Part shown: positions 17,688-20,780 of the stretch, piece by piece
Numbering within the stretch: position 1 is the stretch's first letter
Layout of the letters: each line of letters opens with the position of its first letter
Notes under the pieces: generated by a model
Database searches by the model: none
What the model saw: the letters and a program-made list of their open reading frames with translations, nothing else
Told to the model about the DNA's origin: nothing
Assembly: GCF_018350175.1 (NCBI RefSeq)
Contig: NC_058368.1
Location: 54,500,001-54,564,000 of the forward strand
DNA length: 64,000 nucleotides
Origin: Felis catus
Lineage: Eukaryota
Direction of reading: 5' to 3'
Made by a program: the position numbers and the translations under genes

Positions 17688-18572
17688 AAATTTAACTTTA
17701 AATGCAACGCATCCATGTTGACAACAATGTGAAATGTTATGTGAATTTGCCTGAGAGCTCTCAGAACTTCAGATGGAGGGGTATAGAAGGTAAATTACTG
17801 TATTGCGTTTTTTTATATGAAGCTGGATAGTATATTCCAGAAAGAGGAGTTATAGGCCTACAGACATTCCTTTAATTCTGCGAAGAATACAATAGTTGCC
17901 AAGAGGCAACTGCACAACAAAATCATCATTTATCAAAGATTATTTACATAATAATTTGAATGTGTTAGGGAAATTTAAGTAATATTAAAAACAACAATGT
18001 ACAAACTTTTAAACATAGGAAATTCCACTCTGGATTTTAATTCACATCAGTTTAAATATAGTCACCATAAATCATTTTATCCTAAAATTATTTTCTTTCA
18101 GCAATAAACATGATATTCTCCACTGTAAGCAGATATTTCTTTGGGATCCAATTAAATGTCTAAAATGTGACATTACTCTCCTAACTACACAAATTATCTA
18201 TTTTTGAATGTCTGGTCTATTTAGCCACATTTGGCCTTTACTATAGATTACTGATGAAATAATTAATTTAATACCATCATGGAAATATAGCTTGAGTGCT
18301 GTCCATCAGATGCTTGCATTTGTATTTGCTAATGTGAGACACCTATCTCTCCATCCTCTCTGTCATCCTTATATATACTGAAGACCAAACTCTAGAGGTA
18401 TATGGTGGGTGCTGACTAGAGCCCCACTTCTCCCTTCCATGACCACACTGACAGCTTCGACATGACAATCTACAATGCAGTCTGTCAGCGTTGCCCTTTA
18501 TCTTTATGTATGCCAAATACCAAACAGAGCAAATTTTCTTGGTTGCCCTTGTTACCTGGGTTTCATTCACAA

Positions 18573-18698
<126 letters not shown>

Positions 18699-19689
18699 CA
18701 CTTATACATTCACACAAACATATATGATTTTACCTACAACAGGGCTGAAATAGTCACTATGTGGCAATGGCCAACTTTACAGGGATTTTTAATGTTGCCA
18801 AGATAGTGATTCTAAGAATAATATGTTGGGAAAAATTCCAGTTGCCTGTTAACCATTGGTTTGTTGATATTGAGAACAGGTACCACTAAAACCAGTTATT
18901 TTTATACAATCCATTTTTACAGGCTTGCAAAGAACTTCTTGCCCATAGGATGCTTTTCTCAGGGTGAACCTAGGGAACATCACAAATTTGGATATGTATC
19001 ATAGAATCCTGAGTATGAGTTTGAATAATTTTAGAGATAAGTTTTGCTTATCTATAAATTACCAAACTAAATAGAAGAAAAGTTTCTTTTTTTTTTAGCA
19101 GGCCATTTTTGAAATTTATTATAAATTTTCCTCTAGTGAAACTATATTCTTTTTCTCTGAAAGCCTTTAGTTTGTCAGTGGATGATTTTTAGCTGTATGG
19201 AATAAAATAAAAATGATTTTTCCACATATGCATAAGATTGTAACCATATGCACCCAATAGTGCAGTTTCTACTATGGGTTATATTACACCAAAATAAATG
19301 ACAAAATTTCTGCCTGGAAAGCCAATATTACAGGGGAATAAGTGATGTAATAAAAATAACCAGAGTGTTGTCTGTTAACTTTAATTGGAATGTAGTTTCT
19401 TTCACTGCAGTTTCCAGAATAAGATTGTTTAATATATATTAAGCAAAATAAAGGAAATTCATATATTAAACAAGTTCAATAATTTAAAAATGTACTATTT
19501 GCATTTTATAAACTTTGCCTTCCCCCTTTTTTGTGTAAGCATTATTTTAATAGAAATTAAGTAGAAACTATGATTAATTAGCATTGGTTAATGATATTTG
19601 TGACCCAGAGTAAATTTTAAGGCTCTCCTCCTTACTCTTTCACGTAAGCAGTTTTATGTACCAAGATTCACCTTAAAAATTAACTTTTA

Positions 19690-19909
19690 GGGGCGCCTGG
19701 GTGGCGCAGTCGGTTAAGCGTCCGACTTCAGCCAGGTCACGATCTCGCGGTCCGTGAGTTCGAGCCCCGCGTCAGGCTCTGGGCTGATGGCTCGGAGCCT
19801 GGAGCCTGTTTCCGATTCTGTGTCTCCCTCTCTCTCTGCCCCTCGCCCGTTCATGCTCTGTCTCTCTCTGTCCCAAAAATAAATAAACGTTGAAAAAAAA
19901 ATTAAAAAA
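19690..19909 (+). mobile_element. Young feline SINE (SINEC_Fc-like), CpGs intact
   Basis: 'ggggcgcctgggtggcgcagtcggttaagcgtccgacttcagccaggtcacgatctcgcgg..'; Pol III A box at 19702-19713 and B box gttcgagcc at 19758-19766; TT|AAAAA endonuclease site at the outer TSD. Confidence 0.98.
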
Positions 19910-19971
19910 AAAAAGTTTAATCTCAAGGCAAATCTTATACTTGTAACCAGTTTATGTAAAAGTTAATTTTT

Positions 19972-20179
19972 TTTTCCAACGTTTATTTATTTTTGGGACA
20001 GAGAGAGACAGAGCATGAATGGGGGAGGGGCAGAGAGAGAGGGAGACACAGAATTGGAAACAGGCTCCAGGCTCTGAGCCATCAGCCCAGAGCCCGACGC
20101 GGGGCTCGAACTCCCGGACCGCGAGATCGTGACCTGGCTGAAGTCGGACGCTTAACCGACTGCGCCACCCAGGCGCCCC
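19972..20179 (-). mobile_element. Young feline SINE (SINEC_Fc-like), inverted partner of 19690-19909
   Basis: Its reverse complement differs from the + copy at 7 positions over ~203 nt by manual alignment; the first 65 nt are identical. Confidence 0.98.
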
Positions 20180-20780
20180 GAGATTAAACTTTTTAAGAAG
20201 AGCTTTTCTAATACAGTGTTTGAAAACTATTAGTGTTAGAAGAGAATATCCTTTCCTTAACTCTGGTTTTCTTGAGGAAGCATTTTCCCTTAACACGCCG
20301 TTGGCACCTTCCCACCCCTACTACTATCCTGAAGTTCTCTCAGTGATCAGAGTTACGTAGCTGATGGATGCCAAAACTGGTTCACAGCCCTCACTGAGAT
20401 GAGTTAAACTCTCAGAAGTCCAGTGCATGGGACTAGATCATATTACTGCTTCTTCCTCCATTCAGACTATGGACACAAATAAATCCAAAGACTTAAAACT
20501 TTCAGTAGCGGGACGCTCCAAAGTTCAGGCTGGGGACAGTGTTCTCGGTCTATGTTGTTTGGCTCTCATGACAGCTATGCAACAAATGGGATACTGTGGG
20601 CTTCTGTATTTGTTTTGTGTTTTTTTTTCTTAAATTGATCAGCATCTGGACTGAGAAGTAGATTGATGGTTGGTAAAATAATCCCAATTGATTAAATAGC
20701 CATCAAGTGTTTTCTCCACTATATAGAGAAAATAGTTTGCTACTAACTAGTGATTGATTACCAGGAGTCATGCTGTGTTT

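What the first reader, a model, noticed from the sequence alone, without database searches (positions are those of the whole stretch)
19675..20194. Swapped TSDs reveal a micro-inversion between two young inverted SINEs
Seen: the + SINE is preceded by aaaaattaactttta (19675-19689) but followed by aaaaagtttaatctc (19910-19924). The - SINE has taaaagttaattttt on its tail side (19957-19971) and gagattaaacttttt on its head side (20180-20194). 19957-19971 is the exact reverse complement of 19675-19689, and 19910-19924 is the exact reverse complement of 20180-20194. So each SINE's inner TSD copy sits next to the other SINE, inverted, around a 32-bp spacer (19925-19956). Both outer TSDs have TT|AAAAA L1-endonuclease sites. 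Known: TPRT produces direct TSDs, and recombination or template switching between inverted repeats flips the intervening DNA. Inference: two independent insertions ~60 bp apart were followed by inversion of the spacer plus tails, and the segment could still flip or be polymorphic. An assembly mis-orientation across a ~97% identical hairpin would look the same.
Basis: partly seen in the sequence, partly recalled or inferred. Interest (0 to 1): 0.8.

Follow-up and report, generated by a model that had tools for sequence, protein, structure and literature searches.

The report
Flipped spacer between two inverted SINEs
Two young carnivore SINE repeats inserted tail to tail about 60 bases apart, and the short stretch between them was later turned around, which is a clean, very small example of a well-known kind of repeat-driven inversion.

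Summary
The 15-mer before the + SINE head (19675-19689) is the exact reverse complement of the 15-mer beside the - SINE tail (19957-19971). The 15-mer after the + SINE tail (19910-19924) is the exact reverse complement of the one beside the - SINE head (20180-20194). Both outer sites read TT|AAAAA. Chance does not explain this.

Two independent L1-type insertions were followed by an inversion of tails, inner TSD copies and the 32-bp spacer, driven by the inverted 203-nt arms. No outgroup or raw-read test was possible: no run was listed.

I added three points.
- The 9 bases 'aaaaattaa' of TSD A match a conserved SINE tail motif, so that copy was probably primed internally.
- The arms differ at sites that vary commonly among copies, so they are independent insertions rather than twin copies.
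- The pattern recurs. Of 99 close inverted pairs in this genome, 7 have swapped TSDs. Flipping goes with near-identical arms: 6 of 14 classifiable pairs against 1 of 79, and this locus is that one.

This is a known mechanism, retrotransposon recombination-mediated inversion, at unusually small scale. Interest is modest.

The parts
19673..19679 (+). L1-endonuclease-type target TT|AAAAA of the left insertion
   Evidence: Read directly.
19675..19689 (+). Outer copy of TSD A (AAAAATTAACTTTTA), abutting the head of the + SINE
   Evidence: It is the exact reverse complement of 19957-19971.
19690..19909 (+). + SINE: 203-nt body (19690-19892) plus the canonical tail, A9 TTAA and an A run. It is now probably a chimera of the two original copies.
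   Evidence: It has 3 differences from the 98-arm majority sequence. ARAGORN calls a tRNA-like fold at 19695-19779.
19910..19924 (+). Inner copy of TSD B, inverted (AAAAAGTTTAATCTC). It now lies next to the + SINE tail.
   Evidence: It is the exact reverse complement of 20180-20194.
19925..19956 (.). 32-bp unique spacer, inferred to be inverted relative to the pre-insertion site
   Evidence: The orientation is inferred from TSD logic only. No outgroup sequence was available.
19957..19971 (-). Inner copy of TSD A, inverted. It now lies next to the - SINE tail. Bases 19963-19971 overlap the SINE's own A9TTAA tail motif.
19972..20179 (-). - SINE: body 19976-20179 with a tail truncated at TTAA and no terminal A run. 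It is probably a chimera.
   Evidence: It has 3 private differences from the majority sequence and shares none with the + copy.
20180..20194 (-). Outer copy of TSD B (AAAAAGTTTAATCTC on the - strand), abutting the head of the - SINE
20190..20196 (-). L1-endonuclease-type target TT|AAAAA of the right insertion, read on the - strand
   Evidence: Read directly.

Best explanation
Two copies of a young tRNA-derived carnivore SINE inserted independently, by L1-type target-primed reverse transcription, at two TT|AAAAA sites facing outward and 62 bp apart. This gave a tail-to-tail inverted pair, each copy with its own 15-nt direct TSD.

The left insertion was probably primed internally. The nicked target end ...TTAATTTTT-3' can pair with the SINE's conserved tail motif AAAAAUUAA, which would explain why that tail lacks a terminal A run. 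This step is inferred.

Later, one exchange between the two inverted 203-nt arms turned around everything between the exchange points: the distal parts of the bodies, both tails, both inner TSD copies and the 32-bp spacer. The exchange could have been replication template switching, break-induced intramolecular repair or crossing-over. Which one is unresolved. Both SINEs would now be chimeric and the TSDs are swapped.

The exchange points lie between the SINE heads and the tails, because each tail type still sits beside the TSD that fits it.

No function is implied. This is a neutral-looking structural mutation that leaves a hairpin-prone palindrome of about 520 nt.
For: Shown directly:
- Two exact 15-nt reverse-complement matches sit at the four SINE junctions. 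They are absent elsewhere in the window, with 0.11 matches expected by chance.
- TT|AAAAA lies at both outer sites.
- Both heads start at the SINE's first base.
- Ordinary copies carry direct TSDs after an 'A9-10 TTAA A-run' tail: 11 of 12 by eye. The motif occurs 19,126 times in the genome and 0 times in the control.
- The arms share no non-consensus variant. They differ at consensus positions 66, 85, 105, 125, 156 and 160. Of these, 66, 85 and 105 are common polymorphisms among 96 other arms: 27, 36 and 32 carry the minor state. This points to different source variants and so to independent insertions.

Recurrence in this genome:
- Swapped TSDs occur in 6 of 49 tail-to-tail pairs.
- Swapped TSDs occur in 1 of 50 head-to-head pairs.
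- Flipping is strongly tied to arm identity: 6 flipped of 14 classifiable pairs with 2 or fewer arm differences, against 1 of 79 with 3 or more (Fisher p = 2.5e-5).

Other support:
- The single-stranded DNA fold is -294 kcal/mol against -74 +/- 5 for shuffles.
- The same signature defines retrotransposon recombination-mediated inversions in primates (PMC2603318, passages read).
- Inverted repeats flank all definite human-chimpanzee microinversions (PMC8755829, passages read).
Against: - No orthologous empty or single-SINE site was seen, so the ancestral orientation of the spacer rests on TSD logic alone.
- No chimeric junction can be shown inside the SINEs.
- This is the only flipped pair among 79 classifiable pairs with 3 or more arm differences. 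So either the flip happened while the arms were more alike, or it is an atypical event.
- With only 62 bp of unique DNA between the arms, classical synapsis is sterically awkward. PMC8755829 makes this argument for segments under 33 bp.
Confidence: 0.84

Rival explanations
1. One-step paired insertion. Two endonuclease double cuts 62 bp apart released a short fragment. Both of its T-rich 3' ends primed reverse transcription of SINE RNA, and the fragment was rejoined in the flipped orientation. No later inversion is needed.
For: By derivation, this gives exactly the observed sequence.

Elsewhere in the genome, 12 of 49 tail-to-tail partners differ at 1 or fewer positions, against 0.2% of non-partner pairs. 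They share rare variants that exist in only 8 and 5 copies genome-wide.

Those near-identical pairs split 7 direct to 5 swapped. A fragment rejoined at random would give about that split.
Against: - At this locus the arms carry different states at commonly polymorphic sites 66, 85 and 105, so they are not two copies of one source RNA.
- Flipped pairs with identical arms have imperfect TSDs (L019, L060, L062). That fits arm homogenisation better than a brand-new twin insertion, but the test is only suggestive (p 0.003-0.11 depending on how mismatches are counted).
- It needs two complete retrotransposition events at once.
- I know of no described mechanism for this, and I ran no literature search aimed at it.
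Confidence: 0.06
2. Assembly artefact: the 62-bp inner segment was mis-oriented between two 97% identical inverted arms.
For: A mis-orientation would give the same sequence, and no reads could be inspected.
Against: - The genome is 2.43 Gb in 71 contigs and the window has no N. This continuity implies reads much longer than the 520-nt structure, though that is my inference.
- The six arm differences and the two different tails are kept apart rather than collapsed.
- The same pattern occurs at 6 other loci, in a non-random relation to arm identity.
Confidence: 0.03
3. DNA-level rearrangement of a single SINE insertion. Either a fold-back inverted duplication, or an inversion through staggered breaks, copied the SINE in inverted orientation.
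For: One pair in the genome does look like this. L030 carries at least 30 nt of palindromic flank outside both heads.
Against: - Here the outer flanks are not reverse complements of each other beyond the shared ttaaaaa.
- The - SINE ends exactly at the SINE's first base next to TSD B, and B' follows a canonical A tail. Together with its own TT|AAAAA site, these are marks of a true insertion.
- The arms share no private variant.
- A staggered-break model would need a break exactly at the SINE 5' end and leaves four extra A's unexplained.
Confidence: 0.02

Closest known systems
Retrotransposon recombination-mediated inversion (Alu-RMI and L1-RMI; Lee et al. 2008, PMC2603318; passages read)
   Same: There is an inverted pair of same-family non-LTR retroelements. 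The exchange makes both elements chimeric, so their TSDs no longer match. TSD analysis is used to infer the ancestral state.
   Different: The primate events span 166 bp to 81 kb and were checked against outgroups and by PCR. Here the unique inverted DNA is 62 bp, or at most about 490 bp counting the SINE parts. The elements are carnivore tRNA-derived SINEs, and no outgroup check was possible.
Microinversions flanked by inverted repeats (human-chimpanzee; PMC8755829, passages read; PMC3227671, seen in the search listing only)
   Same: A short segment is inverted precisely between flanking inverted repeats. Template switching at the repeats, or break-induced repair, is proposed. That paper notes that template switching turns imperfect repeats into perfect ones, which fits the link between identical arms and flipping seen here.
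   Different: Their inverted segments are 17-33 nt with repeats of 3-75 nt. Here the arms are 203-nt transposon copies, and TSDs give an internal record of the former orientation.
Inversions by ectopic recombination between inverted transposon copies with exchanged TSDs (for example Galileo in Drosophila, PMC2775673; search listing and abstract only)
   Same: Exchanged TSDs between two inverted copies serve as the diagnostic.
   Different: Those are DNA transposons and kilobase-to-megabase inversions, not a micro-inversion.
Large palindromes with arm-to-arm gene conversion and occasional spacer inversion (human Y palindrome P6, PMC3723533; abstract only)
   Same: Inverted arms are kept alike by conversion, and the spacer sometimes inverts. 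This matches the genome-wide pattern found here for close SINE pairs.
   Different: The scale differs: arms of tens of kilobases against 203 nt. At this locus the arms are not homogenised.
L1 twin priming (recalled; no paper read here)
   Same: Both strands of a target prime reverse transcription and give inverted retroelement sequence.
   Different: By derivation, twin priming gives head-to-head segments flanked by one long direct TSD. It does not give two full-length tail-to-tail copies with swapped 15-nt TSDs.

Membership tests
Retrotransposon recombination-mediated inversion (RRMI) | Two elements of the same family in inverted orientation at the inversion boundaries | tested here: met
   The arms are 197 of 203 identical, on opposite strands.
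Retrotransposon recombination-mediated inversion (RRMI) | Neither element has matching direct TSDs, and each TSD finds its partner, inverted, at the other element | tested here: met
   There are two exact 15-nt reverse-complement matches. The only direct match is the 9-nt SINE tail motif.
Retrotransposon recombination-mediated inversion (RRMI) | The breakpoint-spanning elements are chimeric | tested here: inconclusive
   Each tail type stays with its fitting TSD, so the exchange lies within the bodies. No diagnostic haplotype marks a junction, because all combinations at sites 66 and 105 occur among other copies.
Retrotransposon recombination-mediated inversion (RRMI) | An outgroup or other individuals carry the non-inverted arrangement | not testable with these tools
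   No run was listed. There were 0 matches in metagenome and genome contigs. The flanks are single-copy in the own genome.
L1-mediated target-primed reverse transcription insertion (each SINE) | TT|AAAA-type nick site, a TSD of about 7-20 nt, an A-rich 3' tail and a full-length 5' end | tested here: met
   TT|AAAAA lies at both outer sites. The TSDs are 15 nt once the inner segment is un-inverted. The tails are canonical (+ copy) and truncated (- copy). Both heads start at position 1.
Twin priming or single-event inverted insertion | One direct TSD flanks the whole structure, with inverted parts head to head | tested here: not met
   The copies lie tail to tail. The outer 15-mers are unrelated to each other in direct orientation.
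Palindromic inverted duplication including flank (as at L030) | Flanks outside the repeats are reverse complements of each other | tested here: not met
   The outer 30-nt flanks share only ttaaaaa.

The most novel reading that the evidence does not exclude
The pair arose in one event. Two L1 endonuclease double cuts freed a 62-bp fragment, both of its 3' ends primed SINE cDNA, and the fragment was rejoined at random orientation. This would be an undescribed 'paired insertion' mode. It would also explain why near-identical close pairs in this genome share rare source variants and split about evenly between direct and swapped TSDs.
Probability: 0.06. Interest if true: 0.7.

Novelty: new member of a known kind. 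Interest (0 to 1): 0.34.

Why it matters
On its own, the locus is a tidy small-scale case of a known rearrangement, read from one genome without any outgroup.

The wider pattern found on the way is more useful. In this genome, close inverted SINE pairs behave like mini-palindromes. About a quarter of tail-to-tail pairs have arms far more alike than unrelated copies are, and about 40% of those pairs are flipped. That gives a countable class of micro-inversion sites that ordinary alignment pipelines miss. These sites can be tested for polymorphism in cat population long-read data. They also bear on why close inverted SINE or Alu pairs are unstable, and on SINE presence/absence and TSD-based phylogenetic markers, which assume intact TSDs.

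Tried and rejected
- **Sequencing runs.** The search with library word PACBIO listed none. This says nothing about whether such runs exist.
- **Host DNA in other collections.** A 24-mer from the spacer gave 0 matches in metagenome contigs and 0 in genome contigs.
- **Paralogues that might keep the old orientation.** Both flanks are single-copy in the own genome.
- **Earlier notes of this scan.** There were none at this place or by sequence. The word search gave two unrelated textbook transposon-pair inversions.
- **Daughter-copy idea.** I considered that the 'A9TTAA' shared by both tails meant a daughter copy, a 3' transduction or gene conversion into the flank. I rejected this because the motif is part of the SINE tail genome-wide.
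- **Twin priming from two nicks.** By derivation this gives a head-to-head pair with a long direct TSD, not this structure.
- **Staggered-break inversion with inverted duplications.** This needs a break exactly at the SINE 5' end and leaves four A's unexplained.
- **Locating the exchange point from haplotypes.** This was not informative, because all combinations occur.
- **Rfam.** Only sub-threshold matches to long-hairpin plant miRNA families appeared. These are a generic effect of the perfect hairpin.
- **Coding sequence.** No plausible coding ORF lies within 4 kb on either side.
- **Aleshin and Zhi 2010.** The paper on neighbouring-Alu homogenisation is not held. I know it only from the reference list of PMC3670932.

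Full report
**1. What is there**

Window 19675-20194 holds two full-length copies of a young SINE lying tail to tail.
- The + copy has its body at 19690-19892 and its tail running to 19909.
- The - copy has its body at 19976-20179.
- The repeat finder reports the arms as a 235-nt inverted repeat that is 93% complementary with flanks included.
- Over the 203-nt bodies the copies are 197 of 203 identical. One extra G in the - copy lies at the body end.
- The 13 other matches to the + SINE in the window are only 74-86% identical to it (15 matches in all, counting the two arms), so these two copies are much the youngest.
- ARAGORN sees a tRNA-like fold in the + copy head. This fits the tRNA-derived carnivore SINE family, but that family name is recalled and was not tested against a repeat library.

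**2.
- 19675-19689 is the exact reverse complement of 19957-19971, and 19910-19924 is the exact reverse complement of 20180-20194. The spacer is 32 bp.
- With one mismatch allowed, each 15-mer occurs only at its two places in 64 kb. Shuffles give 0.11 expected, and 0 of 100 reach two matches.
- Both outer sites read TT|AAAAA on the strand of their SINE.
- The window has no N. It lies at C1:54,500,001-54,564,000 of a 2.43-Gb assembly in 71 contigs.

**3. A refinement about the tails**

Both tails contain 'A9 TTAA'. At first this looked like shared flank. It is not.
- The motif, with the preceding body end, occurs 9578 + 9548 times in the genome and 0 times in the reversed control.
- In 12 of 12 other copies it is followed by an A run. 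In 11 of those 12 a recognisable direct TSD follows, judged by eye; L006 is unclear.

So the + copy now carries a canonical tail followed by B'. The - copy carries a tail cut off right after TTAA, running straight into 'ctttta'.

Nine of the 15 bases of inner TSD A are therefore ambiguous between TSD and SINE tail. The outer copy of A lies upstream of a SINE head and cannot be SINE DNA, so the target itself read AAAAATTAACTTTTA.

The simplest account is inferred. The nicked bottom strand ended ...TTAATTTTT-3' and annealed to the internal AAAAAUUAA of the SINE RNA rather than to its terminal poly(A). Another locus, L060, shows the same kind of truncation.

**4. Why an inversion**

Turning 19910-19971 around gives: cctt | A | SINE with truncated tail | A | spacer | B | SINE with canonical tail, on the minus strand | B | aagaag. 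That is two ordinary insertions, each with a 15-nt direct TSD and a perfect nick site.

I derived the outcomes of the alternatives by hand.
- Priming from two nicks on opposite strands (twin-priming geometry) gives a head-to-head pair inside one long direct TSD.
- Keeping the present spacer orientation as ancestral gives no source for the outer TSD copies.
- A staggered-break inversion of a single SINE needs a break exactly at the SINE's first base and leaves four A's over.
- Only a one-step 'paired insertion' with a freed and flipped 62-bp fragment gives the same sequence as insertion followed by inversion.

**5. Independent insertions or twins**

I compared the arms with a majority sequence built from 98 arms.
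- Each arm has 3 private differences and the two share none.
- The six differing positions are 66, 85, 105, 125, 156 and 160.
- Positions 66, 85 and 105 are common polymorphisms among the other 96 arms, with minor states in 27, 36 and 32 arms. All combinations at 66 and 105 occur.

So the two copies most likely came from different source variants. That favours independent insertions. It also means the exchange point cannot be placed from haplotypes.

Each tail type still sits beside its fitting TSD, so the exchange lay inside the bodies. The longest uninterrupted identity blocks today are 65, 43 and 30 nt.

**6. Is this a one-off?**

*Tail-to-tail pairs.* A genome-wide pattern search found 49 tail-to-tail pairs of this young subfamily, with 20-140 nt between the body ends. 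I fetched all 49.
- Automatic classification gave 29 with both TSDs direct, 10 with one direct, 3 unresolved, 2 with both swapped, 4 with one swapped, and 1 mixed.
- After reading the sequences the tally is 6 swapped, 1 palindromic duplication, 2 unresolved and 40 with at least one direct TSD and none swapped.
- The swapped loci are this one (L014), L019, L052, L057, L060 and L062. L062 rests on one TSD only. L057 rests on 13 nt plus 8 nt.
- The palindromic duplication is L030, which includes at least 30 nt of flank. The unresolved pairs are L027 and L034.
- L054 and L055 are copies of one another, so they are not independent.

*Head-to-head pairs.* The genome has 866 such pairs within 140 nt. 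I analysed only the first 50, all on contig C1.
- 1 is swapped (L074, with both TSDs exact).
- 46 have at least one direct TSD.
- 3 are unresolved.

**7. Flipping goes with arm identity**
- 12 of 49 tail-to-tail partners differ at 1 or fewer positions, against 0.2% of random non-partner pairs, whose mean is 12.7 differences.
- These partners share non-consensus variants. The variant combinations of L049 and L019 exist in only 8 and 5 copies genome-wide, the two arms included.
- Among tail-to-tail pairs with 2 or fewer differences there are 5 swapped, 7 direct and 1 unresolved.
- Among those with 3 or more there are 1 swapped (this locus), 33 direct, 1 palindromic and 1 unresolved. Fisher p = 0.003.
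- With the head-to-head sample added, the split is 6 of 14 against 1 of 79, p = 2.5e-5.

Flipped pairs with identical arms have imperfect or poor TSDs (L019, L060, L062). This suggests the arms were homogenised after insertion rather than being brand new. The test depends on how boundary mismatches are counted and gives p between 0.003 and 0.11.

This fits what is written about inverted repeats. Template switching both inverts the intervening segment and perfects imperfect repeats (PMC8755829, passages).

The present locus is the exception. It is flipped, yet its arms differ at six sites. So the flip either predates some of the CpG changes, or it was an exchange with little conversion. I see no evidence that it is still flipping.

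**8. Mechanism**

*Shown:* the inverted arms, the swapped TSDs, the nick sites, the tail types and the recurrence.

*Inferred:* the order (insertion, insertion, inversion) and that the arms drove the inversion.

*Unresolved:* whether the exchange was replication template switching, break-induced intramolecular repair or crossing-over.

As single-stranded DNA the region folds into a near-perfect hairpin. Its energy is -294 kcal/mol, against -74 +/- 5 for shuffles. That favours replication- or break-associated routes but does not prove them.

**9. What is known**

Swapped or non-matching TSDs across an inverted pair of Alu or L1 elements define retrotransposon recombination-mediated inversion. 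That was described for 166 bp to 81 kb between human and chimpanzee (PMC2603318, passages). The same logic is used for Galileo in Drosophila (PMC2775673, abstract). Two earlier notes of this scan applied it to a copia pair and an IS pair, and both were judged textbook.

This locus is a new, very small member of that kind. I did not find a paper describing swapped-TSD micro-inversions between carnivore SINEs. The five completed searches used Alu, inversion and microinversion terms. None named felids or carnivore SINEs.

**10. What remains open**

No outgroup sequence and no reads were available.
- No sequencing run was listed.
- The spacer gave no match in metagenome or prokaryote-genome contigs.
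- The flanks are single-copy in the own genome.

The ancestral orientation and the exclusion of an assembly error therefore rest on inference.

Noticed in passing
Genome-wide; sample loci L063-L112 (contig C1): The genome has 866 head-to-head pairs of this SINE within 140 nt. In the first 50, 26 have 41 nt or fewer between the heads. Of those 26, 19 have a central TTT|AAA, meaning two abutting TSDs from insertions on opposite strands of the same palindromic nick site. Their arms differ at 11-81 positions, so the site was reused at different times.
   Followed up: partly
Loci L015, L018, L019, L023, L034, L037, L043, L048, L049, L052, L057, L060, L062: 13 of 49 tail-to-tail pairs have arms differing at 2 or fewer of 203 positions while sharing non-consensus variants, some of them rare. 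This suggests arm-to-arm homogenisation of close inverted SINEs. The few remaining differences cluster at head positions 1-8 in 4 of the 6 pairs that have any.
   Followed up: partly
L030 (G000:C15:20565337-20565451): This tail-to-tail pair has outer flanks that are reverse complements of each other for at least 30 nt. It is a palindromic inverted duplication of SINE plus flank, not a TSD swap.
   Followed up: no
L054 and L055 (G000:C37:41677710 and 41709293): The same SINE pair, with identical inner sequence and flanks, occurs twice 31.6 kb apart. This is presumably a segmental duplication.
   Followed up: no
L060 (G000:C46:61246523-61246619): This is another flipped pair in which one SINE tail stops inside the A10TT motif and runs into a TSD beginning AATT. 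It is the same apparent internal priming as at this locus.
   Followed up: no
window 19810-20059: Rfam gives sub-threshold matches (124 bits against a gathering score of 230, and lower) to long-hairpin plant miRNA precursor families on both strands. This is a generic effect of the near-perfect hairpin and not a gene. If the locus is transcribed, it would form a long double-stranded RNA stem.
   Followed up: no
window about 18500-18720: A compound (CT/GA)n-(GT/CA)n microsatellite is visible through the repetitive ORF translations.
   Followed up: no
L015 (G000:C1:60987204-60987331): The right SINE head is followed by an extra partial copy of the SINE head (about 19 nt) before its TSD.
   Followed up: no
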